A stretch of 64,000 bases of DNA from an uncultured Treponema sp. (lineage in GTDB: Bacteria; Spirochaetota; Spirochaetia; Treponematales; Treponemataceae): positions 18,016 through 82,015 of the forward strand of contig CAMKEG010000009.1 in the NCBI GenBank assembly GCA_946411505.1. Reading direction: 5' to 3'. Position numbers and translations under genes: made by a program. Position 1 is the stretch's first letter. Each line of letters begins with the position of its first letter. Below the pieces are notes generated by a model, which had not been told where the DNA came from, did no database searches, and was given only the letters and a program-made list of their open reading frames with translations. Positions 2 through 52,436 of this stretch are shown here, piece after piece.

Positions 2-1036
2 CCGGCGCGCCTCTTGCAGTCATACGCGGTTTTAATCAGCGTTTCGCTTTACTTGGGATTTTTTTGCGCGCTAAAGCTCTTGCCTAAATTCTACAACTTG
101 CTGCCGCATGACAGGGGCCGCGAGTTCGCGCTTGCGTCGACCAGCGAGGCGGCCAAGGGAAAGCCTACCGGCGCCGGCGTTGTCTTCATAAGCTTTTTTG
201 TTTTGGTTTGCCTTTTGTGCGTTCCGATGACAGGCTTGGAATTGGCCGCCGTCGCGTTCACTTGGCTTACGATGCTTAGCGGCTTTTTGGACGACCGAAG
301 CGTCACCTCGTGGGGCGAATATTTAAAGGGAGCGCTTGACTTGATTTTGAGCGCGGCCTTTACCGCCATCATGTATTATTTTCTTTCTAAGTTTTCGGAA
401 GACGGCGCGGTGCGCTTTTGGTTCCCCTTTGTGACAAATCCAGTCGCGATTCCATTTTGGCTTTACATGATTGTCGGAACGGTTTTGCTTTGGACTTCGA
501 TTAATACGACCAACTGCACTGACGGCGTTGACGGCCTTTCTTCGACGTTGATTCTTGTGGCGCTGATGGCGCTTGGAATTATTTTCTACGTCGTTCTTGG
601 CCACGTTGACATTGCAAAGTATTTGCTGGTTCCGCACTTAAAGACGGGAGCGGCCTGGGGCATCATGACTTTCGCGATGGCCGGAACGCTGATGGGCTAC
701 TTGTGGCACAACGCCTTTCCCAGCTCCGTTTTGATGGGAGACGCCGGAAGCCGCGCGCTGGGCTTTTTTATCGGAGCCTGCGTTTTGGTTACGGGGAATC
801 CCTTTATCCTTATCGCGACAAGCCTTGTGATTTTGCTGAACGGCGGAACGGGCCTCATAAAAGTTGCGCTCTTGCGCTTCTTTAAGATTAAGATTTTCTC
901 GAACGTGCGCTTCCCCTTGCACGACCACGTGCGAAAAAATCTTGGCTGGTCTCCAACCCAGGTCTTGCTTAAGTTTTTAATCATCCAGCTTTTGGTCACA
1001 ATCTTTACGCTGGGAATCTTCTTTAAAATCCGCTAG
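2..1036 (+). CDS. mraY: Phospho-N-acetylmuramoyl-pentapeptide transferase (MraY), probably 5'-partial
   Basis: Multi-TM protein with NCTDGVDGLS, MGDAGS and PLHDH motifs. The frame is open from position 2, so the true start probably lies before the window. Confidence 0.85.
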   Translation, partial: PARLLQSYAVLISVSLYLGFFCALKLLPKFYNLLPHDRGREFALASTSEAAKGKPTGAGVVFISFFVLVCLLCVPMTGLELAAVAFTWLTMLSGFLDDRSVTSWGEYLKGALDLILSAAFTAIMYYFLSKFSEDGAVRFWFPFVTNPVAIPFWLYMIVGTVLLWTSINTTNCTDGVDGLSSTLILVALMALGIIFYVVLGHVDIAKYLLVPHLKTGAAWGIMTFAMAGTLMGYLWHNAFPSSVLMGDAGSRALGFFIGACVLVTGNPFILIATSLVILLNGGTGLIKVALLRFFKIKIFSNVRFPLHDHVRKNLGWSPTQVLLKFLIIQLLVTIFTLGIFFKIR

Positions 1037-1037
1037 C

Positions 1038-1067
1038 GGCTAGCGGCAATAAAATCGAAAGCAAGCC
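1038..1067 (+). repeat. Partial copy of the intergenic REP-like repeat
   Basis: GGCTAGCGGCAATAAAATCGAAAGCAAGCC matches the reverse complement of 38019-38048 at 27/30 nt. Both copies directly follow a stop codon. Confidence 0.7.
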
Positions 1068-1120
1068 TAAGCCTGCGGCGACAAAAACGGCTAGAAAGCC
1101 TAAAAGTGTCGCCGCCGTTG

Positions 1121-2461
1121 TCATTCAATTCCAAACAAAAGCGCGAGCGTCTTTGCGTCGCGCGTCATGTTGCTGATGACGCAGTATTCGTTGGGCATGT
1201 GCGCGGTCTCGTCAAGGCTGCTCCACACAACGCAATCGTAGCCAAGGTTGCGGAGTTCGGCGGCGACAGTTCCGCCTCCAATTCCGATTGTCTTTGCTTC
1301 TATTCCATGCGCCTCTTTTATGGCGGAAGCTAGCGCCTTGACGACCGGAGCGTTTTTGTCGGTGGCCTTGGACTGCGCGTTTTGCAAAAGCTGGAACGAA
1401 ACCTTGGCGCCCGAAACTTCTTCCTCTTTCGCGACAATCTTTTTTATCTCTTCCAAAATTTCTTCATTTTTATAGCGCGGAAGAACGCGGCAATCAAAGC
1501 AAAAAACGTCGCTTCCCGGAATTATGTTCACGCCCGCAACGTTCGCGTCGCGCTTAGTCGGCTCAAAGGTGCAAGTGGCAGGCTCAAACAAATCGTCCCT
1601 TGCGTCAAACCTTTTATGCAGGCCCTCGTAAAGCGCGACGCTCAAACGGTTGGCGGCAAGGCAAGCGTTGAGTCCTTCGTCTGGCCTGGAGCCGTGGCAC
1701 TGCTTTCCGCGGACGGTGAACTCAAGCCACAAGACGTTTTTTTCGGCGACTTCGATTGTTTGGCCAAGAGGATCGCCGCCGTCGGGGATTACAAAAAAGT
1801 CGTTTTTGCTAAAAAGGTCCGGGTGGTTTTTTAAGAGCCAAATCATTCCGTACTTGCTTCCGACTTCCTCGTCGGCCGCGAACAAAAGTTTTATCGTCCG
1901 CTCCGGCTGAACCTTGTTGGCCACAAAGGCCCAGGCGGCGGCGAAGGCCGAGCACAAGCCCTGCTGGTTGTCTTCTACGCCGCGGCCAAAAAGCTTTCCG
2001 TCCTTTTCCACTACTGTCCACGGATCGGTCTTCCAGTCGGCCAAGTTTCCGACCGGAACCACGTCCATGTGCGCGATGACCCAAATCGCGCCGGAACTTT
2101 GATTGTTCGCAAGACTAGAACTGGCGGCGCCGGAAGCCCCAGAACTGTCGCAAGCCAAAGAAGCGCCGGAATCGTTCGCAAGCCCAAGACTGCCGGCGGC
2201 GACGGACTGCTTCTTTCCCGGAATTGTCGCGATTAAGTTGGGTCGCCTTCCGTGCAAGGCGCGGCTGTCCGGCGCGTCAAAGCGCTCCAAGTTTGTTATT
2301 CCGTGGGCGCGCAAAAATTCTTCCAATGCCGCGCACTTTTCCCATTCGCCGTCGCCGCCGTTTTCCGGGGCCAGCGCTTTATGCGATGTCAAAAGTTTTT
2401 GCAGCGCGACGCATTCGTCCGCGCTGTTTTCTATGAATTTAAGAAGGTCTGATTTGTTCAT
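1121..2461 (-). CDS. M20 family metallohydrolase (DapE/ArgE-like) with a low-complexity in-frame insertion
   Basis: AHMDVVP, GRGVEDNQQG, DEEVGS and ETAH motifs, with a Ser/Ala/Gly-rich insert after 'TIPGKK'. Confidence 0.88.
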   Translation of the reverse strand: MNKSDLLKFIENSADECVALQKLLTSHKALAPENGGDGEWEKCAALEEFLRAHGITNLERFDAPDSRALHGRRPNLIATIPGKKQSVAAGSLGLANDSGASLACDSSGASGAASSSLANNQSSGAIWVIAHMDVVPVGNLADWKTDPWTVVEKDGKLFGRGVEDNQQGLCSAFAAAWAFVANKVQPERTIKLLFAADEEVGSKYGMIWLLKNHPDLFSKNDFFVIPDGGDPLGQTIEVAEKNVLWLEFTVRGKQCHGSRPDEGLNACLAANRLSVALYEGLHKRFDARDDLFEPATCTFEPTKRDANVAGVNIIPGSDVFCFDCRVLPRYKNEEILEEIKKIVAKEEEVSGAKVSFQLLQNAQSKATDKNAPVVKALASAIKEAHGIEAKTIGIGGGTVAAELRNLGYDCVVWSSLDETAHMPNEYCVISNMTRDAKTLALLFGIE

Positions 2462-5417: not shown

Positions 5418-5447
5418 ATTATATGCACAAATATTAAGGTTTGTAAA
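5418..5447 (-). promoter_or_regulatory. Sigma70-like promoter of AAA paralog 1 (near-leaderless)
   Basis: TTTACA (5447-5442), 18 nt, then TATAAT (5423-5418), 5 nt before the ATG. The -35 lies inside the gene-proximal repeat. Confidence 0.55.
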
Positions 5448-5513
5448 GTGGAATTTTGCACAAATATTGAGATTTTTAAATGCGAAAGTTGCACAAATAT
5501 TGAGGTTTTTAAA
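5424..5513. repeat. Three direct repeats of a 24-bp box with a 33-bp period upstream of AAA paralog 1
   Basis: TGCACAAATATT(A/G)AG(G/A)TTT(G/T)TAAA starts at 5424, 5457 and 5490, with 9-nt variable spacers. Confidence 0.95.
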
Positions 5514-5534
5514 TAATATTTCATGATTTCTATA

Positions 5535-8938: not shown

Positions 8939-9024
8939 AAAAATGCATATTTTTGGACTATTAAATGCGTTAAAAATGCATATTTTTGGACCAATAAATG
9001 CATTAAAAATGCATATTTTTGGAC
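8939..9024. repeat. Three direct repeats of a 20-bp box with a 33-bp period upstream of AAA paralog 2
   Basis: AAAAATGCATATTTTTGGAC is identical at 8939, 8972 and 9005. The spacers TATTAAATGCGTT and CAATAAATGCATT are also similar. Confidence 0.95.
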
Positions 9025-9065
9025 AGTGTAGCGGCTCTTTTTGTACCAGTCAATAACTTCCTCTT

Positions 9066-16309: not shown

Positions 16310-17374
16310 CTAGTGCTCGTCGTCGGGGTTGTATTCCTTGGCGCTTTCGGACTCAATCGCCTCGCGGGTTGTCCTTGACTTTGCGCGGCCTTTTGCGGCG
16401 GACTTTTTTGAACTAGACGCGGACGCGGCTTTTGATTTTCGCTCGGCGGCGCTTTTTGTCTTTGCCAAAGTTCCCGCGATAAACTGCGACTCGCTGTCGT
16501 AAACCTTTACGTCCAGCTTGTTGTAAGGAATGTCGATTCCGGCCTCGTCAAAGACGCGCTTTATGGCGACAAAGGTTTGGTTTTTGGCGTTTAAGAAATC
16601 GTCTTTTTTAAACCAAACGGCAAGCGTCATGTTTATTCCGCTGTCGCCAAAGCCGTCAAACCAAACAAGCGGCGCGGGGTCCTGCAAGTCGCATTTGCAA
16701 TAGTTGGGGGCCTTTGCCAAAGTGTCCAAGGCTGTCTGCATGTCCGTTTCGTAAGAGACAGAAACTTTTACGTCCAAGCGCCGCTTGTCAAAGTAGCTTG
16801 TGTTCCGCAAAGTTGAGTTGATGATAGTTGAGTTTGGAATGCGAATCATTTGGTTGTCCAGCGTGTGGACTTTTACGCTTAGCAAGCCTATTGTGTCGAC
16901 GATTCCAGTCTCGCCCGCGACGTTTATCAAGTCTCCGATTTTGAGCGTCTTTTCCACGATTAGAAAAACGCCGGAGATGATGTTGCTGACGGAAGTTTGA
17001 GCGGCAAAGGCGATCGCGATACCGGCAACTCCAGCCGCTCCCCATATCGCGCTAAGCTTTATTCCGAACAAACTTAGAATGAACATTATCAAAATTGCGT
17101 AGTATATGTACTTGATGAATTTTAGAAGAATGACCGAGCGGTGCGCCGGAAGCTTTTTTTCGGGGATTTTCTTGACCGAGCGGATGACCAATTTGTAGAC
17201 GGCCATGAGCGCGAAAAAGATTAAGAGAACTCCCACGAGCCTAAAAAAGTTGTCCCAAGTGGCAAAGCCCTTTACCCATTTGACAAAGGAAATGTAGGCC
17301 CAGTTGAGGTCCTCTGTGATTGTGTTGTCTGAATGGAGAAGCGTGTTGCCCTCTTCGATAATTGTTTCTTCCAT
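16310..17374 (-). CDS. mscS: Small-conductance mechanosensitive channel (MscS family)
   Basis: GIAIAFAAQTSVSNIISG, IGDLI, RIPNS and GIDIPY, followed by a basic low-complexity C-terminal tail. Confidence 0.9.
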   Translation of the reverse strand: MEETIIEEGNTLLHSDNTITEDLNWAYISFVKWVKGFATWDNFFRLVGVLLIFFALMAVYKLVIRSVKKIPEKKLPAHRSVILLKFIKYIYYAILIMFILSLFGIKLSAIWGAAGVAGIAIAFAAQTSVSNIISGVFLIVEKTLKIGDLINVAGETGIVDTIGLLSVKVHTLDNQMIRIPNSTIINSTLRNTSYFDKRRLDVKVSVSYETDMQTALDTLAKAPNYCKCDLQDPAPLVWFDGFGDSGINMTLAVWFKKDDFLNAKNQTFVAIKRVFDEAGIDIPYNKLDVKVYDSESQFIAGTLAKTKSAAERKSKAASASSSKKSAAKGRAKSRTTREAIESESAKEYNPDDEH

Positions 17375-17405
17375 CGTCTACTCCTGAATAATTATTGTCT
17401 AATAA

Positions 17406-17500
17406 TACGGCTGTTTGCGCGAGTTTTGTTGCGAGCGCAAATGTTGCCGCTTATGCGGCGTCAAGCATTTGTGGGCTTGCAATCAATCTTCTCGCCGCTG
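17406..17500. repeat. REP-like palindromic intergenic repeat, copy A (nth-mscS)
   Basis: The 54-nt core 17406-17459 matches 37950-38003 at 49/54 nt. It contains two hairpins. Confidence 0.85.
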
Positions 17501-17508
17501 CTATTATA

Positions 17509-18144
17509 TCATGCTTGATTCTTTTTGCAAAGGTCTTTGATTATGCATTCCCCGCATTTTGGGGAACGGGCTGTACAAACATAGCGGCCGTGCAAAATCA
17601 GCCAATGGTGCGCGTGTTCCATATATTTTTTCGGAATCCGTTCCACAAGGCTTTTTTCCACTTCAAGGGGCGTGGTCCCTTCCGCCAAGCCAATCTTTGG
17701 ACAAATGCGCAAGAGATGGGTGTCCACCGGCATGGTGGGCTTTTTAAAAATCACGTTAAGGACAACGTTGGCGGTTTTGCGGCCAACGCCTGGAAGGGAT
17801 TCCAATTCCTCCCGGGTGTCAGGAACCTGGCCGCCAAAATCGTCAAGCAGCTTTTGGCTTAGGGCTATGACATGAGCCGCCTTTGTTCGGTAAAGGCCGA
17901 TGGACTTTATGTAGTCCATAAGTTTTTCTTGTCCCAGCGCGAGCATTTTTTTTGGCGTGTCGGCGATTTTGTAAAGGGGCTCGGTGGCCTTGTTGACGCT
18001 TTTGTCCGTGGCCTGCGCCGAAAGGACAACGCTTACCAAAAGAGTGTAGGCGTTCTTCCATTTTAATTCAGACTGAGGATTGGGATTTGCTTTTTTAAAG
18101 CGCTCAAAGACTTTGCGGATTTCCGCTTGCGACAAAAGTTCCAT
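17509..18144 (-). CDS. nth: Endonuclease III
   Basis: LSAQATD, LPGVGRKTANVV HhH motif, VDTH, and the C-X6-C-X2-C-X5-C Fe-S motif. Confidence 0.96.
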   Translation of the reverse strand: MELLSQAEIRKVFERFKKANPNPQSELKWKNAYTLLVSVVLSAQATDKSVNKATEPLYKIADTPKKMLALGQEKLMDYIKSIGLYRTKAAHVIALSQKLLDDFGGQVPDTREELESLPGVGRKTANVVLNVIFKKPTMPVDTHLLRICPKIGLAEGTTPLEVEKSLVERIPKKYMEHAHHWLILHGRYVCTARSPKCGECIIKDLCKKNQA

Positions 18145-37417: not shown

Positions 37418-37601
37418 AAAAAAAACGGCTGAAAAGCGCGGCTCCCAGTCGCGGACGGCATTGCGAAACCGCTCGATATCGTCGCTACACGCTGTTTGCG
37501 CTTGAAACCATTAAACGCTGCCGCTTGCGCGGCAGGCGCAAACAGAGTGTTTTCGCAATGCCGTCCGCTCCTTCGCGCCGCGCTTTTCAGCCGTTTTTTT
37601 T
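37418..37601. repeat. 184-bp nested inverted-repeat element (MITE/REP-like)
   Basis: 25-bp perfect terminal inverted repeat AAAAAAAACGGCTGAAAAGCGCGGC. Inner arms GCGGACGGCATTGCGAAA/TTTCGCAATGCCGTCCGC and CTGTTTGCGC/GCGCAAACAG, plus an apical CTGCCGC/GCGGCAG hairpin. Confidence 0.9.
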
Positions 37602-37635: not shown

Positions 37636-37932
37636 CTAGATTTTTTCTAATTTTTTTGCCTTTACAAAGAAGACTTTTACGCCTTCGTCGGGGAACTGCT
37701 TTTTTACGGCCTTGATTATGGCCTTGACTTTGCTTGCGTCCGATTTTTCGATGTAGGCAAAGAGCGCGAAGTTCACTTCGGGCCAGCTGGAAGTTCCCAG
37801 CTTGTAGCCGGCCTTTCCGCGTCCGTGGACCAGCGGAATCAGCGTGTACAAAAAGTCGGGGATGTTTTCTTCCAGCGTCTCTATGATGTCGTCCTGAACC
37901 GATTGGTTCGCGATGATTTCAACTCGATACAT
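37636..37932 (-). CDS. P-II-like transporter-associated protein (PG0541-like)
   Basis: RVEIIANQSVQDDI..VHGRGK.G.KLG.SSWPEVNF. It is the last gene of the RND operon. Confidence 0.75.
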   Translation of the reverse strand: MYRVEIIANQSVQDDIIETLEENIPDFLYTLIPLVHGRGKAGYKLGTSSWPEVNFALFAYIEKSDASKVKAIIKAVKKQFPDEGVKVFFVKAKKLEKI

Positions 37933-37949
37933 TATGACCTCTCAAAAAT

Positions 37950-38048
37950 TACGGCTGTCCGCGCGAGTTTGGTTGCGAGCGCGGATGTTGCCGCTTATGC
38001 GGCTAACATAAGTTTTTTGGCTTGCCTCCGATTTCATTGCCGCTAGCC
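37950..38048. repeat. REP-like palindromic intergenic repeat, copy B (acrB to P-II-like gene)
   Basis: The core is 49/54 identical to 17406-17459, and the distal 30 nt match 1038-1067. Confidence 0.85.
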
Positions 38049-38049
38049 T

Positions 38050-41000
38050 TCATTCCGTAAGGAATACCTTAATGCGGCTCTTCTTTGTTTTCTTTTCCTT
38101 CATAATCAGCGAGTACAAAACCGGAATGAAGAAAAGCGTGATGAAGGTGGAGCTTGTCAAGCCGCCTACAACCGCCACGCCAATCGGCTGGACCATGCCG
38201 GCGCTTCCGCTTGAGGCGAAGCACATCGGAAGCATTCCCAAAATCGTCGTCAGCGTTGTCATCAAGACCGGGCGCAGGCGGCTAGAGCCGGCTTCAAGGC
38301 AGGCGTCATGCATTTTTAGGCCGCGGTCAAGAAGGAGGTTTGTGTAGTCAACCAAAATGATTCCGTTGTTGACGACGATTCCAACCAGCATGATTAGGCC
38401 CACCGCGCTCATCATCGAAATCGCCTGGCCCGAAATTTTGTAAATCGCGACGACTCCGATTACCAAGAATGGAATCGTGCAAAGGTTTATGAAGGGCGCC
38501 TTGAAGCTTTCGTAAGTTCCGGCCATGACGCCAAAGACCAAAAGGATTGCCATCAAGATGATTCCCGCGTAGGCCTTGCCCTGGTCCTGCATGTCCTTCC
38601 ACGCGCCTTCGTAGGAGACGCTTATGTTGTCGGGAATGATGAAGGAGTCGGAGATTCCCTTTTTGATTCTGTTCTCGACTTCGTAGGCGTTGACTTCGCT
38701 TGTGAGGTTTGCGCTGATTGTCACGACGCGCGTTTGGTTTTCGCGCTTGATTGTGACAGGCCCCAAGCCTTTTACGACGCGCGCGAAGTTGGCCACGCTG
38801 ACTTTTCCCGCGCTTCCCTTTACGTAAATCTGCTCCAAGTCAGTGACGGATTTTCTGTCGCCGCCCTCGTACATCAAGACAACCGAGTATTCTTTTCCGG
38901 CCTTGCGGTAGGTGGTGGCCGTCACGCCGTTAATCGCGTAGTTGATTTCGCGCGCGACGGTCGTGACGTCAACGCCAAAGGAGTAGGCGCGGTCGCGGTC
39001 GATTTCCACTTCGATTTCGGGAACGCCTTCCTCGGTGTCCACGGAAGGCTCGCCCAAGTCGCTTATGCCGTCCATAACGTCGCGGATTTTTCCGGCGTAT
39101 TTTATGGCCGAGTCAAGGTCGTCGCTTCGCAATTTGATTACGATGTCGCTTCCGGTCATTTGTCCGCGGAAGCCTTGGCTGAACGAAAAGCGCGCTCCGG
39201 CAAAGTCGTTGAAGTGGGCGCGAAGTTTTCTTTGTATGTCCTCCGCCTTGTCGATTTGCTCTTCGCTTTTGGGAAGCTGGATTTGAATCGTTCCCCTGTA
39301 GGCGGTGGCGTTGCGCGAGCCGGTTCCGATGCTGGTGATGATTGTCGTGTAGCCCTTGACTTCCTTTTTGCAAATCTCTTCAAGCTCGGCCATGACGGCG
39401 GCGGTTGAGTCGAGCGTAGTTCCTATCGGAAGGTTCACGTTGAGAGAGACGCTGTCGTCGCGGCCGTTTGGCATCATGTTGATTGTCATCGTCGGGATGA
39501 AGGCGAATGCCGTGATGAGCGTTGTCACGCAAACCGTGACTGTTATCGCGCGGTGGGTTAGGGCCGCGTCCAAGGCCTTTTTGTAAACGGCGGTCAAGGC
39601 GTTCATCGGAACGTCAAGCAGCGCGTAAAGCTTTTTTAGGATTTTTGACTTTACGGGCTTTTCCTTTCTGTTTGAAAGCGGAAGGAATTTTCCGGCCAAA
39701 ACCGGCACCAAGAAAATCGCGACAAAGAGCGACGACATCAGCGCGATTACGACGGTGAAAATTATTCCCTTGAACATTTGGCCCATCATTCCCAATTCCT
39801 TCATGTAAAAAAGGAAGGGAATGAAAACGCAAATCGTAGTCAAGTTTCCGCTGGTGACCGACATGACCATTTCGCTAGAGCCAAGTTCCGCCGAAACCAA
39901 AGGCTTTGCGCCGCGCGAACGGTAAACGTAAATGTTTTCTATCATTACGATCGACGCGTCCACAATCATTCCAACGCCAAGAATCAAGCCGGTGAGCGTC
40001 ATCATGTTCAGCGTAAGGCCGGCAAAGTTCATGCAAAGCATTGTGATGATGATTGAAAGCGGAATCGAAATCGCGATGATGATTGTGCTCTTGAAATTTT
40101 TTAGGAAGAGGAACAAAATCAAGACCGCCAAAACCAAGCCCTGCATCGCGCTTTCCAAAAGCGTGTTGATTGTGTCGCGGATTGAGTCGGTGGTGTCCCA
40201 TACGATTTGCATCGACATGTCGCCGGGAAGAATTTCCTGTATCTCGTCAAGCTTTTTGTAAACCGCGTTGGCGACCGTGACGCTGTTCTTTCCCGACTGC
40301 TTTGTGACGCTGATGTAAACGCCGGGCTGGCCGTTAATCAAGACTTCGTTGGACTTGTCGCGGTAGCCAAGGTAGGCTTTTCCGATGTCGGCAAGGCGGA
40401 CGATGTAGCCGTTCCTTGTCGTTATTACGGTGGAATTGATCTGCTCCACGCTGGCAAATTCTCCGGTCGTCCTGATCGTGTAGTCGTAAAAGCCTTCGGT
40501 GATTTTTCCGCCGCCCAATTCCAGGTTTTGGCGCGAAAGCGCGGAAGAGACTTCGGTAATCGTTATGCCGTAGGCGGACAAGCGGTTTTGCGAAAGGTCG
40601 ACGCGGACTATTTTGTCGCGGCCGCCGTAAACGCTCGCTTCGGCAACGCCGTCGGTTTGCTCGATCAAGTCGGTGATTGTGTTGTCCGCGATTTCGCGCA
40701 ATTCGTTGCGGTCGCGGTTTCCGTTGACCGCGATGCGCATGATCGGCATGGAGTTGCTGTCCATCTTAAAGATTGAAGGCGTTCCGGCGTCGTCGGGAAG
40801 GCTTCGGACAACGCGGTCGATTTTGTCGCGCACGTTGTTGGTGGCGATGTCAAGGTCGGTTCCGTAGTTGAACTCAAGCGAAATGCTGGAGCGGCCTTCC
40901 GAAGAAGTGCTGGTGATTTTTTTAAGGCCGGTCACGCTTACTAGCTGCGACTCCAAAAGCTTTGTGACGGATTTTTCGACTGACTCAGGGCCTGCGTTTT

Positions 41001-42144: not shown

Positions 42145-43446
42145 TTAATTTCCTCCAGCCAAGGTTCCAAATGGAACGCCAAGCGTGTTTTCTAGATTCA
42201 ATATTGACGAAGCCAAGTTGTAGGCTTGCTGCTTTAAGTTGAGCCGCGCTTTTTCCAAAGAAGTGCGCGCGTTCAAAAGTTCCGTCCAATTGCGGGAGCC
42301 TCGGTTGTAGGCCTCTTGCGTCATGCGGTAGCTTTGCTCGGCTAGTCCAACGCTTGCCTTGAGCGATTGTATGGCGGAAATCGACTGCTCGATTTTTTTA
42401 AGGCCGCTCTGCGCGCTGACCGCAAGGCTTGTCTTTTTGTCCGCGATTTGCAACTCGTAATTGGCGATTGAGTCCTTGGCAGCGCTTACGGCGTCGGCCT
42501 TTTTTGACCATGGCAAAAATCCGTCAAGCGGAAGCGTGACGCTTAGCGAAAGGCTTCCGTTGTCGTTCATTCCGTTTGAGCTGTTTGTCCATGTGGGCCT
42601 GTAAGACCAGCCCGCGCTGATTGTGGGGCCGTACGCCGAAAAGCGCTTGTCCAAAAGGCTGTTCCGCGCTATTTCAAGATTTTTTTCAAGCGCCAAAAGT
42701 TCCAGAGACTGCGACTCGATTCCTTCTACCGAAACTGCCTGCAAATTGGAGAATGAGTCAAGGCTTCCCTCAAGCGAAATTTGCGCGTCCTGTTCGATTC
42801 CCAAAGTTTGCTTAAAGGCGGCCAAATCCGCGTCGTATGAAATTTGCGCGCTTTGCAAGGCGGGCAATTGCGTTTCGTAGTTGACTTGGCTTGAAAGGAC
42901 GTCAAGCTGGCTTATCGCGCCCTGGCCGTACTTTCTGCGGTTGGTTTCGTAAGTTTGCCGCGCGGTCTCGGCGTTGGTCTTTTGCAAGTTGATGTTGTCG
43001 GCCTGGTAGAGCAAATTGTAAAAGGCGTTCCTCACTTTCATTTCTACGGAACGGCAGGCGGTTTCGTAGTTTATAAGGCCGGCCTGGTATTTTAGCGCGG
43101 CGTTTTTAATGTCGGTGTAAAGGTTTGTCGAAAGGGTCACGTTGACCGAGCCTTGTACGTAGGCAGAATAGTTTTCGCTGAAATTTTTGTTGGCCTTGGA
43201 AAGGCCGCCGCTTGCGGTCAGCGAAGGGCTAGCGCTGTTCCACGAGTTTTTTTTGGAACGCTTGGCCGCGTCCAGTTGGATTTGGCTTTGCTTTATTTGA
43301 ACGTTGTTCTTTAGCGCCAAGTCCACCGCGTCCTGTATTGAAAGCGAAAGCGGCCCGGCGGCGGCCCCGGCGTTTTGCGCGTCTTGGGCTTGCGCCGTTC
43401 CAAACGACAAGGCGGCCGCGACAATCGCGCATAAGACTTTTTTCAT
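42145..43446 (-). CDS. TolC family outer membrane efflux protein
   Basis: Signal peptide MKKVLCAIVAAALSFGTAQA, LSIQDAVDLALKNN, and two OEP repeats (YGQGAISQLDV; YNRGSRNWTEL). Confidence 0.9.
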   Translation of the reverse strand: MKKVLCAIVAAALSFGTAQAQDAQNAGAAAGPLSLSIQDAVDLALKNNVQIKQSQIQLDAAKRSKKNSWNSASPSLTASGGLSKANKNFSENYSAYVQGSVNVTLSTNLYTDIKNAALKYQAGLINYETACRSVEMKVRNAFYNLLYQADNINLQKTNAETARQTYETNRRKYGQGAISQLDVLSSQVNYETQLPALQSAQISYDADLAAFKQTLGIEQDAQISLEGSLDSFSNLQAVSVEGIESQSLELLALEKNLEIARNSLLDKRFSAYGPTISAGWSYRPTWTNSSNGMNDNGSLSLSVTLPLDGFLPWSKKADAVSAAKDSIANYELQIADKKTSLAVSAQSGLKKIEQSISAIQSLKASVGLAEQSYRMTQEAYNRGSRNWTELLNARTSLEKARLNLKQQAYNLASSILNLENTLGVPFGTLAGGN

Positions 43447-43573
43447 CGTATTCTCCTGCGTAGAGCGACAATATCCTATCATATTTTCGCTTGGAATTCT
43501 ATAGTAGCGATGTGTCAAAGATGTGACAAAAAAGGGCGGAATTTTGAAAATTCCTGGGGAAATTTGGGCGAGC

Positions 43574-43700: not shown

Positions 43701-44864
43701 ATGGCAAATCAAGAAATGACCCGCTCGGGCGGCCTTGTCCAAAACCTTTCGGGCGAATTGGCCTATTTTTCCTTTAAGCCGTCGCCGCTTCCTCCCGTTC
43801 CGCCCCTGCAAATTGATTCCGCGACCCTTGCGCTTTTGGTGGAAGCCAACAGAAAGGTCGCCTTTTTGGACGCGATTTCAGAAAAGATACCCAACCTCAA
43901 TTTGTTCCTCTCGATGTACATTAGAAAGGAGGCTTTGGTTTCTTCCCAAATCGAAGGAACGCAGTGCACCCTTGACGACGTCCTTGACCCAAGCGTCAGT
44001 CAAAACGCCAACCTTGACGTTGGCGAAGTAATCAACTACATTGCCGCCACCAATTACGCCCTAAAGAGGCTTTCCGATTTGCCCTTGTGCGCTCGGCTTT
44101 TAAAAGAGACGCATGCGATTCTTATAAATGGCGGCCGCGGAAGCGACAAAACGCCAGGAAAATTCAGGACAAGCCAAAACTGGATTGGCGGGCAGGGAAG
44201 CAGCTTAAAGAACGCGCGCTACATTCCGCCGAATGTTGAAGACATGAAAGCCGCTTTGACTGACCTTGAAAAATACATGAACTCAAACGACTCGCTTGAT
44301 CCGCTTGTCCAAGCGGCGCTGATTCATTATCAGTTTGAAACGATTCATCCTTTTTTAGACGGAAACGGAAGAATCGGCAGGCTTTTGATAACGCTATTTT
44401 TGATTCATAAAAAAATAATTTCAAAGCCTGTCTTGTATATTTCATGTTTTCTCAAAATGAACAGAGTCGAGTATTACGACCGGCTGGGCGAAGTTCGCAG
44501 AAACGGAAACTACGAGCAGTGGGCAATCTTTTTTTTGCAGATGATTTTACAAACCGCGAACGACGCGATTGACTCTATAAACGCGCTGGAAGCCTTGCAT
44601 AAAAAAAATATTTCACTGATAGAAGCGCTTCCTGTTCGCGCGCGGGAAAACGCGCTTTTATTGTTTGAATACATCGAGCGAAAGGCGATTGTTGACACAA
44701 GCCTTACCGCCCGCGAGCTTGGCCTTTCTTACAACACAACCGCAAAGAACATCGAGCTTTTGCGCGCCTTGAAAATTCTTTCTCCTTCTTCAAAAAACGG
44801 CAAGGCCAGCCTCTATTCTTACAGCGAGTATTTGGACATCTTGCGCAAGGGCACGGAGTTGTAG
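43701..44864 (+). CDS. Fic family protein (N-terminal DUF4172-like region, C-terminal HTH)
   Basis: HPFLDGNGRIGR Fic motif and EALVSSQIEGT inhibitory-type motif, with SD GGAGG. Confidence 0.93.
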   Translation: MANQEMTRSGGLVQNLSGELAYFSFKPSPLPPVPPLQIDSATLALLVEANRKVAFLDAISEKIPNLNLFLSMYIRKEALVSSQIEGTQCTLDDVLDPSVSQNANLDVGEVINYIAATNYALKRLSDLPLCARLLKETHAILINGGRGSDKTPGKFRTSQNWIGGQGSSLKNARYIPPNVEDMKAALTDLEKYMNSNDSLDPLVQAALIHYQFETIHPFLDGNGRIGRLLITLFLIHKKIISKPVLYISCFLKMNRVEYYDRLGEVRRNGNYEQWAIFFLQMILQTANDAIDSINALEALHKKNISLIEALPVRARENALLLFEYIERKAIVDTSLTARELGLSYNTTAKNIELLRALKILSPSSKNGKASLYSYSEYLDILRKGTEL

Positions 44865-44922
44865 GGTGGAAGTTTGTTTTTGGGTTGAGACTGTGGTAGA
44901 ATAGAGATGTGAAGGACGGTTT

Positions 44923-45453
44923 ATGAATAAAATAACTCTTTCAAAATATAAGAAATTGTATTTTGATCCGAAAAAATGTATCCCCGGTGAACATCATTTT
45001 GTCGCTGTGTATTTGTTGAGTAAATTTCAACGGATTCCTGATTATGTAAATCCTGATGGAACAAAAGGTGTGTGCGGAGATATTGTATTTGAGAATGGCG
45101 GGGGCAAAAAAAGATTTTCCATTGAGGTAAAAATAGGGAAAACATCTTTTTGCTTTTCAAAGAATGAAACAAATTCCTGGTTTGTATATAAAACAGGACA
45201 TTTTCCCAATTATTTGATTGCATTAACACAAAATTATTTGTTTGTTATAAAATGGAAAAAGTTTTCAAATTTTTTCATTAAAGCAAATCCAAAAAGAATA
45301 GAATCTAAGTCTGGAAATAGTAATAGAATTTCTGAAAAAAAATTATTAAGTGAGTTTAAAAATGATTCTTTTGAAATAGATGCGATAAAAGAAAAAGATA
45401 TAAAGGTTTGTTTTGATAAACTCAACAAGGAGATAGAAAAACTCTATGAATGA
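44923..45453 (+). CDS. Hypothetical protein with a PD-(D/E)XK nuclease-like motif
   Basis: GEHHF..PD..GDIVF..FSIEVK. Very AT-rich. Confidence 0.55.
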   Translation: MNKITLSKYKKLYFDPKKCIPGEHHFVAVYLLSKFQRIPDYVNPDGTKGVCGDIVFENGGGKKRFSIEVKIGKTSFCFSKNETNSWFVYKTGHFPNYLIALTQNYLFVIKWKKFSNFFIKANPKRIESKSGNSNRISEKKLLSEFKNDSFEIDAIKEKDIKVCFDKLNKEIEKLYE

Positions 45454-45688
45454 TTTAGGTTCATCTTGGTATTCAAACTCAGAGTCGTATGATGTAGAGG
45501 TTTATGAAATAACCTCTGATATGATTACTGATAAAATTTTGGAAAAATATGACCAGGATTTGTCTCTTTGCAATCTTGGAAGAGAAAATATGACGGAAAT
45601 GTTTTATGATAAAGACGGTTGGATTTATTTCAAGGTAGAAAAGTATTACAGATTCAATTTACGAATAAAGGAATTTGCGAGAAAATAA
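45446..45688 (+). CDS. Hypothetical acidic protein
   Basis: 80-aa ORF overlapping the upstream stop, preceded by SD AGGAG. Confidence 0.55.
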   Translation: MNDLGSSWYSNSESYDVEVYEITSDMITDKILEKYDQDLSLCNLGRENMTEMFYDKDGWIYFKVEKYYRFNLRIKEFARK

Positions 45689-45849
45689 CTTTTACCCATG
45701 GACAACATTCTTCTAAACACTTGGATTGAACTAAAGAAGGGACTCAAGGCGCGGCTTACAAACGCAGGCTAGCGGCTTGGGGAAATCTTAAACTTTTCAA
45801 ACCCTAACAGTATTGACTAATTTCCAAATACATTGTATTTTGTTCTTTA

Positions 45850-45869
45850 ATATTAGCAAATGCTAATAT
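45850..45869. promoter_or_regulatory. Palindromic operator upstream of the HMA gene
   Basis: ATATTAGCA-AA-TGCTAATAT lies just downstream of TTGACT (45813)-N17-TATTTT. Confidence 0.65.
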
Positions 45870-45910
45870 AAGTTGTAATAACCTTCCGTATTTTCTTTTA
45901 GGAGCAGTTT

Positions 45911-46291
45911 ATGGGAAGCTTTGTCGTTGGATTTATTTTGCTTGTGATTGTCGTCCTTGCCGTAAAAAGCTCGGTTCATAGAATTCTCCACGGTTCCGCG
46001 TGCTGCGGAGAGCGTGACGCCCCAGAAAAAAAGATAAAGCCCGCGGATAAAAATAAATCGCATTATCCGTATGAATACATTCTTGTCGTGGACGGAATGC
46101 GCTGCTCAAATTGCGTTCGCCGCGTGGAAAACGTTTTGAACTCCGTGGACGGTTTTTGGGCAAAGGCCAATCTAGAAAAAAAGACTGTCAATGTTTTGTC
46201 AAAGACGCAAGCGGAAGCTTCGTTTTTTGAAAAGCGGATCGGCGAGGCCGGCTACACGGTCTTGTCGGTTTCGCAGGTGGAAAAATCTTGA
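45911..46291 (+). CDS. Heavy-metal-associated (HMA) domain protein with an N-terminal TM/Cys-Cys segment
   Basis: TM followed by SACCG, then VDGMRCSNCV (GMxCxxC). Confidence 0.88.
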   Translation: MGSFVVGFILLVIVVLAVKSSVHRILHGSACCGERDAPEKKIKPADKNKSHYPYEYILVVDGMRCSNCVRRVENVLNSVDGFWAKANLEKKTVNVLSKTQAEASFFEKRIGEAGYTVLSVSQVEKS

Positions 46292-46316
46292 CAATACTAC
46301 GTATGCGTAGTAAAAT
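46288..46316 (+). promoter_or_regulatory. Promoter with an embedded palindrome for the CPBP-PadR-HEAT operon
   Basis: TTGACA-N17-TAAAAT with TACTACG-TATG-CGTAGTA (46295-46312) in the spacer. Confidence 0.75.
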
Positions 46317-46336
46317 GGTCTCGTTTGGAGACCTTT

Positions 46337-47077
46337 ATGAAAAATTTCTTTCGCTTTAATTTTACAAAAAACACCGCCGTCGCCTTTGCGGCCGGAGCGG
46401 CTATGCTTGCCCTTAGCCTTTTGATGCTGCCCTTTATGGGCGCGTCTTTGTTCGACAAAATCGCTTCATTTGTCCTCCGCGACTTGCTTATGATTTTTGG
46501 ACTGGGCGTTGTTTTTGTTTCGCTTTATGTGGAACGGAACAAAGACGGCGTTAAGGCGATTGGCTTTACAGGAAAGAAAACGGCCTTAAGTTTTTTGCTG
46601 GACATTGTTTTTGCCGCGGCTCTTTTGGCGATGTTCTTGAAGGAAGGCCGGCCGCAAGGAATTTGGGAAGCCAAAAATCTTTACGCGGCCGCTTACATTT
46701 TGGTCGCCGGCGTTTTTGAGATGACTTTTATTTACGGCTATTTGCGCGCGTGCTTTGAGAAGGCCTTTGGGATTATTCCCGCGATTATTTTGACGGCGGC
46801 CTTTTATTCTTTCCATCACGCGGGCTTTCAGCCGGAGTTCTTGCATTTGTTTTTTGTGGGCCTTATGTATTGCGCGGTTTATTACATCACGCAAAACCTG
46901 TTGATTGTTTTTCCTTTCTTTTGGGCGGTGGGCGCTTTGTGGGACGTGATTGTGTCTTCGGACGCGGGGGAGGAAATCAAAAATTTTGAGTCGTTCGCCA
47001 TCGCGCTTGCGATTCTGGCTTTGTCCGCGATTTGGATTTTTGTTTTCAAAAAGAGATTATCGGGTCAAGCCCGATAA
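46337..47077 (+). CDS. CPBP family (CAAX/Abi) intramembrane metalloprotease
   Basis: Multi-TM with FEMTFIYGY (EE-like), FYSFHH and later aromatic motifs. Start set at the ATG after GGAG. Confidence 0.75.
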   Translation: MKNFFRFNFTKNTAVAFAAGAAMLALSLLMLPFMGASLFDKIASFVLRDLLMIFGLGVVFVSLYVERNKDGVKAIGFTGKKTALSFLLDIVFAAALLAMFLKEGRPQGIWEAKNLYAAAYILVAGVFEMTFIYGYLRACFEKAFGIIPAIILTAAFYSFHHAGFQPEFLHLFFVGLMYCAVYYITQNLLIVFPFFWAVGALWDVIVSSDAGEEIKNFESFAIALAILALSAIWIFVFKKRLSGQAR

Positions 47078-47098
47078 TGACACATTTGGAGTGATATT

Positions 47099-47599
47099 AT
47101 GTTATCTAAAACTTCAATCGTAATTTGCGGAATGCTTTTGCAGGGCGAGATGAACGCTTACGACATGCTCAAAATGATTGAGCGCATGAACATGCAGTAC
47201 TGGCATCCGATTGGTGCGACCACGCTTTACGAAACTTGCTTGCGGCTGGAAAAAAAAGGCTTTATAGAGGACACGGGCAGGGCGGAAAACAAGGCCGTTT
47301 ACCGTTTGACAAAAAATGGCCGCGCGGAATTAAAAGCCGCGATACGCGCCCTTTTTGAGCGCGTCGATTTTGATTCAGTCTGGTTTTGTCTGGCAGTGAT
47401 GTATTCCGGCGTTCTTACAAAAAAAGAGTTGGAAGCGGAAAAGAAAAAGCGCGCCGCCCTTCTTGACGACTACGAAAAAGGAACGATTGAAAACCGCGAG
47501 AAAATGCTCGCCGCAAAAGTTCCCTACATCGACATCTGCGCGATCGATCGAATGATTCAAATTGTGCGGATGGAAAAAGAAACGCTGGGAAAGTTATGA
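47099..47599 (+). CDS. PadR family transcriptional regulator
   Basis: GEMNAYDM..TLYETCLRLEKKGFI..VYRLTKNGR wHTH. Confidence 0.88.
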   Translation: MLSKTSIVICGMLLQGEMNAYDMLKMIERMNMQYWHPIGATTLYETCLRLEKKGFIEDTGRAENKAVYRLTKNGRAELKAAIRALFERVDFDSVWFCLAVMYSGVLTKKELEAEKKKRAALLDDYEKGTIENREKMLAAKVPYIDICAIDRMIQIVRMEKETLGKL

Positions 47600-48219
47600 C
47601 GGAAACGGAACTGTATAAAAAACTCGGACAGCTTACAAAGAACAAAGACGAATGGGAGCAAAATATTCCGTATGTCGCCGTCTTGCTGGAACATGACTCT
47701 CCAAAAATAAAGGCCAAAGCCTTGTGGCTGCTCGGCGAGATGGGGCTGAAATGGCCACGCGAAATTACTTGCTACGTTTCTTCGGTTGCGTCGTTTCTTA
47801 ACAGCGCAGAACCTCTTTTGCGCGAGCGCGCGCTCAACGCGCTTGGCAGAATCGGGCGGGCAGATTTTGAGCTTATAAGGCCTTACTGGAAAGATTTGTT
47901 CCGATTTGCAAAAGACGGCGCGCCGAACGTAAGGCTCAACTTTATTTGGTCGGCGGAAAACATCGCGACAAACACGCCGGACATTTACGCGGATTTTATG
48001 GATGTTTTTGCGGAACTCCTGCGCGACTCGGATGACAAAGCGCGCATGGAAGCGCCTGAGATTTTCCGCGTTCTTGGAAAACGCAAGCCGCAGTTTGTGG
48101 AACCATATATAAGGCTTCTAAAAAAGATTTCGGAAAGCGACGCGAACAGAGTCGTAAGAATTCATGCCTCTGGCGCGATTAAAGCGACAGAGGCATCGAA
48201 GTCTAAAACTTTTTTGTAA
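47596..48219 (+). CDS. HEAT/ARM-repeat protein
   Basis: Repeated (D/S)..P.(I/V/L)R..AL..LG pattern, with an ATGA overlap with padR. Confidence 0.8.
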   Translation: MTETELYKKLGQLTKNKDEWEQNIPYVAVLLEHDSPKIKAKALWLLGEMGLKWPREITCYVSSVASFLNSAEPLLRERALNALGRIGRADFELIRPYWKDLFRFAKDGAPNVRLNFIWSAENIATNTPDIYADFMDVFAELLRDSDDKARMEAPEIFRVLGKRKPQFVEPYIRLLKKISESDANRVVRIHASGAIKATEASKSKTFL

Positions 48220-51848: not shown

Positions 51849-52403
51849 ATGGCAAATTTAGGAACGAAGCTCAAGGCCCTATTGGCGGCAGGATTGATTG
51901 GAACGGCGGGGTTGGGAATGCAGAGCTGCTCTAACCCGAGCGATTCAGTCTATTACCCTTATACAGTGGAGGCGCCGTCCACTGACAACCCGGGAAGCGG
52001 GGGCGGAACCGAGAACCCTGGCAATGGCGGGGGCGCGGAAACCTCCAACCCGAGCGGCAGCGAAGAAAACAGAGGAGAAACAGAAGTGACTTTTGATACA
52101 CTCGGCGTTAATGATATTGATGCCGCGAGAATAGCATCTACAGCAGCTATTAAGACATATAATGGAGTTAAGGCTAGTTTTTTTAAGAAGTTGGTGAGAG
52201 ATTTTGGAAAAGAAAGTGTGTATTTATATACTGGGAAAACATTTCAGTATGTATCAGAGGTAATAAATTTGGAAGATCCGGACCTTATCGTCCCAAATCT
52301 CATTGAGTATGCTAAGGATGACTATTATTATTATATTCCTGAAAGTATGAAAAAAAGCTTTAACCAAGCTATTGAGGCTTACAAAGCCAGCCATAACCAG
52401 TAA
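51849..52403 (+). CDS. Hypothetical lipoprotein with a Gly/Ser/Pro-rich linker
   Basis: Signal ..AGLGMQSC lipobox, followed by repeats TDNPGSGGG/TENPGNGGG/TSNPSGS. Confidence 0.7.
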   Translation: MANLGTKLKALLAAGLIGTAGLGMQSCSNPSDSVYYPYTVEAPSTDNPGSGGGTENPGNGGGAETSNPSGSEENRGETEVTFDTLGVNDIDAARIASTAAIKTYNGVKASFFKKLVRDFGKESVYLYTGKTFQYVSEVINLEDPDLIVPNLIEYAKDDYYYYIPESMKKSFNQAIEAYKASHNQ

Positions 52404-52407
52404 TTAA

Positions 52408-52436
52408 AAAGCCCTGAAAGCGATTTTCAGGGCTTT
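52408..52436 (+). terminator. Terminator copy 1
   Basis: AAAGCCCTGAAA-GCGAT-TTTCAGGGCTTT followed by an AT-run. Confidence 0.8.

What the first reader, a model, noticed from the sequence alone, without database searches (positions are those of the whole stretch)
17406..17500. Dispersed intergenic repeat with compensatory base changes (copies at 17406 and 37950, partial copy at 1038)
Seen: the 54-nt cores differ at 5 positions, and 4 of them are a paired swap (TT...AA versus CC...GG) that preserves the stem T-YY-GCGC/GCGC-RR-A. A second hairpin, GCCGC-TTAT-GCGGC, is invariant. The stem extends by G-T pairs only on the plus strand. Both full copies lie between co-oriented genes, starting just after a stop codon and ending 15-30 nt before the next start (mscS and the P-II-like gene). 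Inference: selection acts on structure, so this is either a REP-like ssDNA/RNA element or a cis-regulatory/processing RNA that tunes downstream cistrons.
Basis: partly seen in the sequence, partly recalled or inferred. Interest (0 to 1): 0.65.

Follow-up and report, generated by a model that had tools for sequence, protein, structure and literature searches.

The report
Operon-spacer hairpin repeat of rumen Treponema
The repeat is real: it is one copy of a roughly 96-base, two-hairpin element scattered many times through a clade of rumen Treponema genomes, always wedged between one gene's stop codon and the next gene's ribosome-binding site, and it is most likely a small REP-like mobile repeat, not a gene-specific RNA switch.

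Summary
Window 17406-17500 and 37950-38045 are two full copies of one element, and 1034-1124 is a decayed third copy. The flanking genes lie on the minus strand, so the element is read there.

Scans found more than 130 copies in 11 species-level rumen Treponema genomes assembled from metagenomes (MAGs). None turned up in phage, plasmid or viral collections, and none matched Rfam.

Covariation is strong, but it redraws the fold as two adjacent hairpins, each closed by GCGGC:GCCGY.

Copies are almost always co-oriented with the genes. A ribosome-binding site (RBS) plus start codon follows the 3' end in 80 copies, against 3 in the antisense sense. The element's own TAG is the upstream gene's stop codon in 31 of 113 copies. 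The last helix ends 7-8 nt before the RBS.

Close relatives have empty sites or deletion remnants at both window loci. Downstream genes are functionally unrelated.

There are no terminal inverted repeats, no target-site duplication and no transposase partner.

Best reading: a new REP-like, structure-defined dispersed repeat adapted to operon spacers. An added RNA role is possible but untested.

The parts
17406..17500 (-). Full copy 1, a 95-nt core read on the minus strand: CA-GCGGC...GCCGC-AUAA-GCGGC-AACAU-UUGCGC...GCGCAA-ACA-GCCGU-A. It lies between the nth stop codon (17509-17511) and the mscS start codon (17372-17374).
   Evidence: sequence; cmsearch, 111.4 bits, E 7.7e-29; flanking genes.
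17455..17498 (-). Copy 1, hairpin domain I. The closing helix is GCGGC (17494-17498) with GCCGC (17455-17459), around a variable interior that carries the GCAAGCC motif.
   Evidence: the seg1:seg2 helix, with compensated variants GCGAC:GUCGC and GCGCC:GGCGC in other copies.
17407..17450 (-). Copy 1, hairpin domain II. The outer helix is GCGGC (17446-17450) with GCCGU (17407-17411). The inner stem 1 is 17435-17441 with 17414-17420.
   Evidence: 63:103 is GC 60, CG 27, AU 1; stem 1 is 99.5% paired.
37950..38045 (-). Full copy 2, a 96-nt core read on the minus strand. It starts 4 nt after the TGA stop codon of the AcrB-type pump (38050-38052) and ends 17 nt before the ATG of the 98-aa P-II-like gene (37930-37932).
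   Evidence: sequence; 117.6 bits, E 1.3e-30; flanking genes.
37999..38043 (-). Copy 2, hairpin domain I (GCGGC 38039-38043 with GCCGC 37999-38003).
37951..37994 (-). Copy 2, hairpin domain II (GCGGC 37990-37994 with GCCGU 37951-37955; stem 1 is 37979-37985 with 37958-37964).
37938..37943 (-). Native Shine-Dalgarno sequence (GAGAGG) of the P-II-like gene, 6 nt after the element's terminal TA. The block AGAGGTCATAATG is identical at the empty orthologous site in L184.
   Evidence: filled/empty pair; RNA contigs that skip 37933-38058.
17382..17386 (-). Shine-Dalgarno sequence (AGGAG) of mscS, 19 nt after the element's terminal TA. This spacer is longer than usual for the family.
17503..17531 (-). 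Promoter-like site (TTGCAA, 16 nt, TG-TATAAT) at the end of nth, 2 nt upstream of copy 1. It is conserved in orthologues with and without the element, so copy 1 probably lies at the very 5' end of the mscS transcript.
   Evidence: scan; orthologous spacers.
1034..1124 (+). Decayed copy in the sense of the upstream MraY-like gene, whose stop codon is the element's TAG (1034-1036). It holds a duplicated TAGCGGC, the 5' part of domain I up to GCAAGCCTAAG, then a second domain-I-only unit (TGCGGCGAC...GTCGCCGCC). Domain II is missing. Full copies sit at the orthologous site in L022, L025 and L048, and L120 is empty there (TAA stop codon).

Best explanation
The finding is two full copies and one decayed copy of a previously undescribed family of short dispersed repeats. 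The family is confined to a clade of rumen Treponema.

Structure. Read on the gene-sense strand, the unit is about 96 nt: (U)A-GCGGC-[about 35 variable nt with GGCAAGCC]-GCCGC-AUAA-GC(G/C)GC-AACAU-YYGCGC-[loop]-GCGCRR-ACA-GC(C/G)GU-A. It folds into two adjacent hairpins, each closed by a GCGGC:GCCGY-type helix.

Kind. It behaves like a REP-type, structure-defined, non-autonomous mobile repeat. It has no terminal inverted repeats and no target duplication. It occurs in subfamilies whose helices differ by compensating changes. It is present or absent between close relatives, it decays by internal deletion, and it hosts nested insertions.

Niche. Its niche is the operon spacer. It sits, always in the direction of transcription, between the stop codon of one gene and the 5' edge of the next gene's native ribosome-binding site. 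Where it displaced the old stop codon, it supplies a TAG stop itself. Insertion therefore leaves both reading frames and downstream translation intact.

Shown: the family, its fold, its context, its orientation and its insertion/deletion polymorphism.

Inferred:
- The hairpins are the substrate of an unidentified trans-acting enzyme, acting on single-stranded DNA in the manner of IS200/IS605 or RAYT (REP-associated tyrosine transposase).
- Insertion is aimed at the RBS edge.
- The transcribed copy is largely neutral, or mildly affects mRNA stability or processing.
For: Family and spread:
- The 19-mer scan gave 74 loci, about 62 of them in rumen Treponema or Spirochaetaceae MAGs.
- The covariance model found 79 hits. 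nhmmer found 137 domain-I and 144 domain-II hits, 120 of them adjacent.

Fold:
- RNAalifold on 32 balanced copies predicts the two hairpins, and 9 of 17 pairs carry compensated changes.
- On 89 copies, pair 63:103 is GC 60, CG 27, AU 1, other 1. Stem 1 is 99.5% paired. All five whole-structure measures exceed nearly all of the 500 shuffles and all the slid controls.
- The competing fold loses 27-29 copies at its central pairs.

Context:
- An RBS plus start codon lies within 45 nt of the 3' end in 80 of 113 copies, against 3 in the antisense sense.
- The stop codon of an ORF of at least 100 codons lies within -25..+4 nt of the 5' end in 64 copies, and in 31 of these it is the element's own TAG.
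- The distance from the last helix to GGAG peaks at 7-8 nt. The distance from the element's end to the start codon peaks at 15-17 nt.

Polymorphism:
- The nth-mscS spacers of related species are empty, hold remnants, or hold other inserts.
- A DNA contig skips 17375-17494. RNA contigs skip 37933-38058.
- About ten further filled/empty pairs show the downstream RBS and spacer to be native.
- A second small element is nested in the orthologue of copy 2 and in other copies.

Not a regulon: 52 downstream proteins hit 101 Pfam families.

No terminal inverted repeat or target duplication: the flank repeat signal vanishes outside tandem arrays, and the seg1/seg4 termini are inverted in one subfamily and direct in the other.
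Against: - No mobilising gene was found. There was no RayT or Y1-like ORF in 1.36 Mb of element-bearing loci, though this was a single-query search with low sensitivity. No domain I ... gene ... domain II composite was found either.
- No conserved target motif is seen on the 5' side. The junctions in different filled/empty pairs do not fit one simple rule: some show an RBS-like duplicate upstream and others do not.
- At orthologous loci the stems change four times less than the unpaired positions, and 12 of 12 double changes are compensated. The unpaired AUAA and AACA/CA are almost invariant. Both facts would also fit a structure kept by the host for a function. They could equally reflect gene conversion or repeated insertion.
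- The near-absolute sense orientation is not what replication-linked ssDNA transposition alone predicts. In the window the copies follow gene direction within a stretch that shows no GC-skew switch (only three copies).
Confidence: 0.72

Rival explanations
1. Host-serving intercistronic RNA module. The transcribed two-hairpin structure is kept because it does something for operon mRNAs. Possible roles are protecting the upstream cistron's 3' end and the downstream cistron's 5' end after processing (as REP stabilisers do), acting as an RNase III/E/Y processing site, or uncoupling translation of neighbouring cistrons. Its spread would then be secondary. This partly overlaps the best explanation and is not exclusive of it.
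For: - Strict sense orientation, 80 against 3.
- Position inside transcription units. Where there is no downstream gene, a canonical terminator follows the element.
- Fixed distance of 7-8 nt to the RBS.
- Stems are conserved and compensated at orthologous loci.
- Unpaired AUAA and AACA/CA are nearly invariant, as expected of a protein-binding or cleavage site.
- The wobble-pair count leans to the sense strand.
- Copies occur inside metatranscriptome contigs 1-3.6 kb long.
Against: - Close relatives do without the element at the same junctions.
- Copies decay to remnants and take nested insertions.
- Neighbouring genes share no function.
- In copy 1 a conserved promoter would start transcription inside the first helix.
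- No strand-specific or end-mapping RNA data were available. The RNA runs were held only as contigs without direction, and DNA carry-over cannot be excluded.
- Single-sequence folding energies are unremarkable on the sense strand, z -1.3 and -0.6.
Confidence: 0.2
2. Gene-specific cis-regulatory RNA, that is, a riboswitch or leader that tunes mscS and the P-II-like gene.
For: The element lies directly upstream of both genes' ribosome-binding sites, and its structure covaries.
Against: - The same element precedes genes from 101 Pfam families.
- Orthologous mscS and P-II-like genes in near relatives lack it.
- Copies at unrelated loci are 75-90% identical, far more than ancient leaders are.
- The Shine-Dalgarno sequence is not paired by any conserved segment.
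- There is no Rfam match.
Confidence: 0.03
3. Classical transposase-mobilised MITE (miniature inverted-repeat transposable element) of the DDE type, such as the IS630 or Tc1 kind with a TA target duplication. Alternatively, integron attC-like recombination sites.
For: - About 75% of copies begin and end with TA, and several native sites have the element at the TA of a TAA stop codon.
- Size and copy number fit a MITE.
- Treponema genomes are reported to be rich in MITEs (PMC11602168).
Against: - The termini are not inverted repeats. In the larger subfamily the two ends are direct repeats of AGCGG.
- The sequence after the 3' TA does not continue as the native sequence in the filled/empty pairs.
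- There is no target-duplication signal outside tandem arrays.
- Against attC: copies are not in cassette arrays, flank housekeeping genes in conserved order, fold into two hairpins rather than one, and the site where an attC core would be expected reads GTTGCCG, which does not fit GTTRRRY.
Confidence: 0.05

Closest known systems
REP / BIME elements and RAYT-mobilised REPINs of proteobacteria
   Same: Short, G+C-rich, structure-defined extragenic repeats without terminal inverted repeats or target duplication. They occur in many copies per genome, lie after stop codons and between cistrons, and are transcribed with the operon. Their stems are kept by compensating changes. They are reported to affect mRNA stability (PMC3184786).
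   Different: - The unit here is about 96 nt with two different hairpins in direct order. REPs are single 20-40-nt palindromes or inverted pairs.
- Orientation is essentially always sense.
- No RAYT gene was found.
- No GTAG-type 5' tetranucleotide is present.
- The host phylum is Spirochaetota.
IS200/IS605-derived palindrome-associated elements (PATEs), including the IS200/IS605-like stem-loops at 3' ends of Borrelia genes
   Same: Two subterminal hairpins on the same strand, no terminal inverted repeats, no target duplication, and strand-specific insertion. There is a spirochaete precedent for such stem-loops near the 3' ends of genes (PMC3184786).
   Different: - No conserved 4-5-nt target next to one end was seen.
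- No TnpA or TnpB was found nearby.
- Orientation follows genes and not, as far as three window copies can show, replication.
Mycobacterial interspersed repetitive units (MIRU)
   Same: Repeats lodged in intergenic spacers inside operons and transcribed as part of the polycistronic mRNA. Filled and empty sites occur between relatives (PMC3184786). From my own knowledge of Supply et al. 1997, they are oriented with transcription and overlap the flanking stop and start codons. Occasional tandem arrays occur here too (L050, L007, L017, L026, L054).
   Different: MIRUs are 40-100-nt units known for tandem copy-number variation and small in-frame ORFs. They are not defined by a covarying two-hairpin fold. 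Here only the stop codon is supplied, not the start codon, and most copies are single.
Correia (NEMIS) and ERIC elements
   Same: Elements of about 100-150 nt, cotranscribed with neighbouring genes. Their RNA hairpins are substrates for RNase III or E and change transcript levels (PMC10969869).
   Different: Those have long terminal inverted repeats and a TA duplication (Correia), occur in both orientations, and Correia carries promoters. Here there are no inverted termini and no sigma-70-like promoter inside the element.

Membership tests
REP / REPIN (RAYT-associated) | Short extragenic imperfect palindromes in many copies per genome | tested here: met
   More than 130 copies in 11 MAGs, all intergenic, with hairpins kept by covariation.
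REP / REPIN (RAYT-associated) | A RAYT (Y1/HUH) gene in the genome, typically flanked by the repeats | tested here: inconclusive
   phmmer with E. coli RayT and a crude HUH/Y motif scan found nothing in 5068 ORFs from 1.36 Mb of element-bearing loci. This was a single distant query on incomplete MAGs, so absence is not shown.
REP / REPIN (RAYT-associated) | Single 20-40-nt hairpin, or two in inverted order | tested here: not met
   Two different hairpins of about 45 nt in direct order.
IS200/IS605-type non-autonomous element (PATE) | No terminal inverted repeats, no target duplication, and hairpins near both ends on one strand | tested here: met
IS200/IS605-type non-autonomous element (PATE) | Conserved tetra- or pentanucleotide target abutting one end | tested here: inconclusive
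   The 5' flank is variable. The 3' side is TA plus 5-6 A/T-rich nt and then GGAG at a fixed 7-8 nt, which could be a target or a result of selection.
IS200/IS605-type non-autonomous element (PATE) | A cognate full-length element with tnpA and the same ends | tested here: inconclusive
   No composite was seen among 188 loci. Complete genomes were not available.
MITE (DDE-transposase derived) | Terminal inverted repeats | tested here: not met
   The ends are TAGCGGC...GCCGTA in one subfamily and TAGCGGC...GCGGTA in the other. The second pair is direct, not inverted.
MITE (DDE-transposase derived) | Target-site duplication of fixed length | tested here: not met
   The longest common flank word equals the shuffled expectation once tandem arrays are set aside. 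The filled/empty junctions are inconsistent. A 2-bp TA duplication cannot be excluded.
MIRU-like intercistronic repeat | Lies between cistrons of an operon, oriented with transcription, and overlaps the upstream stop codon | tested here: met
   80 against 3 in orientation. The element's TAG is the stop codon in 31 of 113 copies.
MIRU-like intercistronic repeat | Overlaps the downstream start codon, carries a small in-frame ORF, and is commonly in tandem arrays | tested here: not met
   The start codon is native and lies 15-17 nt downstream. Only about 7 tandem cases were found.
Riboswitch / gene-specific leader RNA | Association with a coherent gene set and retention at orthologous loci | tested here: not met
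   101 Pfam families among 52 downstream proteins. Empty orthologous sites. No Rfam hit.
Integron attC site | Cassette arrays, R''/R' core sites (RYYYAAC / GTTRRRY), and one long imperfect hairpin | tested here: not met
   Single copies sit between housekeeping genes in conserved order. The fold is two hairpins. Where an attC core site would be expected the sequence reads GTTGCCG, which does not fit GTTRRRY.

The most novel reading that the evidence does not exclude
The element is more than a passenger. In this reading it is a mobile intercistronic module that homes, in one orientation, to the 5' edge of Shine-Dalgarno sequences. It brings its own stop codon. Once transcribed, it works as a general two-hairpin insulator, stabiliser or processing site that the host maintains. 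The signs of maintenance would be the stems compensated at orthologous loci and the invariant unpaired AUAA and AACA motifs, which could serve as a protein site. That would be a repeat family built for, and acting on, operon architecture, mobilised by a structure-reading enzyme not yet identified in spirochaetes.
Probability: 0.2. Interest if true: 0.7.

Novelty: new member of a known kind. Interest (0 to 1): 0.42.

Why it matters
The element is another lineage-specific family of small structured repeats, so it is not a new principle.

It is still an unusually clean case in three respects:
- Hundreds of nucleotides of covariation define the fold.
- Orientation is almost absolute.
- The insertion niche is exact: stop codon to RBS edge, with a built-in TAG.

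It could serve as a model for how selfish repeats colonise tightly packed operons without polar damage. It could also help show what enzyme moves repeats that lack both terminal inverted repeats and target duplications in spirochaetes.

On the practical side, the family breaks metagenome assemblies of rumen Treponema at every copy. It can be mistaken for a riboswitch candidate in comparative screens, and it offers strain-level insertion markers.

Tried and rejected
- Rfam at gathering thresholds on the whole window, and at E up to 10 on copy 1. The only hit was a spurious plant miRNA.
- My first covariance model and RNAalifold run used copies selected with the exact 19-mer. This was an ascertainment artefact and was overturned once copies found through a different anchor were added.
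- Target-site duplication. Long flank repeats occur only in tandem arrays. I first read the RBS-like motif on both sides as an 8-bp duplication, but it does not hold across the filled/empty pairs.
- An RBS carried by the element. This is rejected for most pairs, because the RBS and spacer match the empty site.
- A promoter or terminator inside the element. Copy 2 gave none. Copy 1 gave only a conserved promoter upstream of the element, at the end of nth.
- An autonomous partner. No transposase-sized interior lies between the two halves; the two cases at 650-724 nt hold host genes. There is no RayT-like ORF, and solo halves are deletion products.
- Carriage on mobile DNA. No match in phages, plasmids or IMG/VR.
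- Single-sequence folding. Energies were not informative: z was -0.6 to -1.3 on the sense strand, and -1.9 to -3.5 on the other.
- The inverted match 17454-17492 / 58945-58983 lies in coding sequence and is probably chance.
- The crude longest-ORF strand call was too noisy to use and was replaced by stop- and start-codon adjacency.
- Chunjie paper (PMC2516098): not held in the library.

Full report
**1. What is in the window**

- The sequences at 17406-17500 and 37950-38045 are alike over about 96 nt.
- The repeat finder gives 87% identity over 62 nt (family D12). Each half of the core occurs exactly twice in 64 kb, against 0.01 expected.
Four of them are the TT..AA versus CC..GG swap.
- A third, partial copy lies at 1034-1124 on the other strand (pair I5, 23.4 bits).

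**2. Strand and neighbours**

- The ORFs around both full copies are on the minus strand.
- Pfam confirms endonuclease III followed by an MscS channel, and an AcrB-type RND pump followed by a weak P-II-like 98-aa protein.
- Read on that strand, copy 1 begins 8 nt after the nth stop codon and ends 31 nt before the mscS start codon. Copy 2 begins 4 nt after the pump's TGA and ends 17 nt before the ATG.
- The partial copy follows an MraY-like gene on the plus strand, and its TAG is that gene's stop codon.
- A conserved extended -10 promoter at the end of nth sits 2 nt upstream of copy 1. It is also present in orthologues that lack the element.

**3. It is a family**

- An exact 19-mer from the core found 74 loci among species-representative genomes. 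About 62 were in rumen Treponema or Spirochaetaceae MAGs, with up to 15 loci in one MAG. The few other hits are at the level expected by chance.
- A covariance model found 79 hits in 705 kb.
- nhmmer with half-element profiles found 137 and 144 hits, 120 of them adjacent pairs.
- The MAGs that carry the element are the 11 whose MscS is at least about 69% identical to the window's. More distant Treponema gave no hits.
- The window is closest to MAG RUG14489, with 97% MscS identity.
- Nothing matched in phage, plasmid or IMG/VR collections, nor in Rfam.

**4. The fold**

Copies that lack the exact 19-mer showed that this was an artefact of selection.

- A large subfamily has GCCGC where the others have GCGGC (segment 3), and GCGGU where the others have GCCGU (segment 4).
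- On 89 copies, pair 63:103 is GC 60, CG 27, AU 1, other 1. Rarer variants (GCAGC:GCUGC, GCGAC:GUCGU) also compensate.
- Segment 1 pairs with segment 2, as shown by GCGAC:GUCGC and GCGCC:GGCGC.
- Stem 1 is paired in 99.5% of cells, and 6 of its 7 pairs have changed on both sides.
- All five whole-structure measures exceed nearly all of the 500 shuffles and all the slid controls.
- RNAalifold on a balanced 32-copy set predicts the two-hairpin fold unaided.

The element is therefore two adjacent hairpins joined by AUAA. The "invariant hairpin" is the junction between them.

Two points qualify this. Wobble pairs favour the gene-sense strand 138 to 24, but they come mostly from one helix-end pair and a weak inner helix, so the folding strand is only a lean. 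The unpaired AUAA and AACA/CA are nearly invariant, at 2.6-4.7% difference against 25-41% in the loops.

**5. Context**

Among 113 well-defined copies:
- 80 have an RBS plus start codon within 45 nt of the 3' end, against 3 in the mirror orientation.
- 64 have the stop codon of a long ORF within 25 nt of the 5' end.
- In 31 of these the stop codon is the element's own TAG.

The last helix ends 7-8 nt before GGAG in most copies. The start codon follows at 15-17 nt. Where no gene follows, a canonical terminator does. The downstream genes span 101 Pfam families in 52 proteins.

**6. Presence and absence**

- nth-mscS spacers in related species vary. Some are short and empty (L077-L079, L081). One carries a 5'-half remnant (L075). 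Some carry solo TAGCGGCA-type stubs (L082-L084). Others carry unrelated inserts (L076, L080).
- A sheep-gut DNA contig skips 17375-17494 and has 20 nt in their place.
- Rumen RNA contigs skip 37933-38058 and have 17 nt in their place. That leaves the pump and the P-II-like gene 2 nt apart, with the RBS inside the pump's last codons.
- Ten further filled/empty pairs show three things. The RBS and its spacer downstream of the element are the native ones. The element occupies the position of, or just after, the native stop codon. Many "empty" sites are deletion products that keep the TAGCGGCAA stub, probably because it had become the stop codon.
- A second element of 60-75 nt is nested at two different positions in several copies, including the RUG14489 orthologue of copy 2.
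- There is no target duplication outside tandem arrays. The termini are not inverted repeats. No partner gene was seen.

**7. Selfish or useful?**

At orthologous loci the unpaired positions differ by 16.7% and the paired ones by about 4%. All 12 double changes keep the pair. This could mean the host maintains the structure. It could also reflect gene conversion among copies or repeated colonisation of the same site, and the data cannot separate these.

RNA runs hold the element inside contigs of kilobase length. Those contigs have no direction and may include DNA. Single-sequence folding energies are uninformative.

**8. Verdict**

- The structure and the strand were partly misdrawn.
- The regulatory reading is unlikely.
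- The element is best filed as a new family of REP-like, structure-defined dispersed repeats specialised for operon spacers. REP/REPIN elements, IS200/IS605-derived elements and MIRU are the nearest known kinds (PMC3184786; PMC10969869). Spirochaetes, including Treponema, are reported to be rich in small repeats (PMC11602168).
- How the element moves, and whether the RNA does anything, remain open.

Noticed in passing
window 37418-37601: A long palindromic repeat with 57-nt arms that are 88% complementary, AAAAAAAACGGCTGAAAAGCGCGGC...GCCGCGCTTTTCAGCCGTTTTTTTT. It lies between the P-II-like gene and the next ORF downstream. It is itself a dispersed family, with at least 11 related copies in other Treponema loci and high word depth in RNA contigs. 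Its ends (ACGGCTG-N4-GCGCG) resemble the 3' end of the element studied here.
   Followed up: partly
L023, L034, L039, L041, L110, L120, L135, L137, L155, L165 (after CAACAT); L111:7286-7453 and L124 (after GCCGCATA): A second small element of about 60-75 nt (TACGGCGTTGCCGTTTTGCG...A/T-rich...TTGCnCGCTnACGCGAGCGGGCAAT) is nested inside copies of the studied element at two different positions. One of these copies is the RUG14489 orthologue of window copy 2.
   Followed up: partly
L080, about 2290-2400 (nth-mscS spacer of MAG RGIG9962): A different small element with inverted ends (TGTCATT...AATGACA) and two internal hairpins occupies the spacer where the window has copy 1.
   Followed up: no
L076, about 2430-2500 (nth-mscS spacer of MAG RUG239): An A/T-rich 60-nt insert made of repeated AATTAAGAATTA-like words sits in the same spacer.
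   Followed up: no
window 5424-5522 and 8939-9037: Two sets of three tandem 33-nt repeats in and just beyond a low-G+C stretch (36% G+C over 4-8 kb, against about 50% elsewhere). They may be an iteron-like or regulatory array in an acquired segment.
   Followed up: no
window 61218-61600: A dense repeat with 12/15-nt periodicity (TTTTTTGCCG/CTTCTTTGC-type units, 19 overlapping copies), probably a low-complexity Lys/Ala-rich coding repeat on the minus strand.
   Followed up: no
window 17503-17531 (-): Extended -10 promoter-like site TTGCAA-16-TGATATAAT inside the 3' end of nth. It is conserved across species, which implies mscS has its own promoter.
   Followed up: partly
window about 43397-43483: The spacer upstream of a minus-strand gene is orthologous to loci that carry a full element in L184 and L111. 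The window has a gap of only about 88 nt there, with no recognisable copy. It is either an empty site or a heavily decayed one.
   Followed up: no
L113:2066-2200, L114:960-1000, L164, L013:4800-4830, window 1034-1047: Short tandem reiterations of the 8-nt 5' terminus ((T/C)AGCGGCA repeated 2-4 times) occur at the 5' end of several copies. They may be slippage products or traces of repeated insertion and loss.
   Followed up: no
window 44001-48000 and 52001-56000: Two further stretches of lowered G+C (0.43 and 0.41) in a window that is otherwise about 50% G+C.
   Followed up: no
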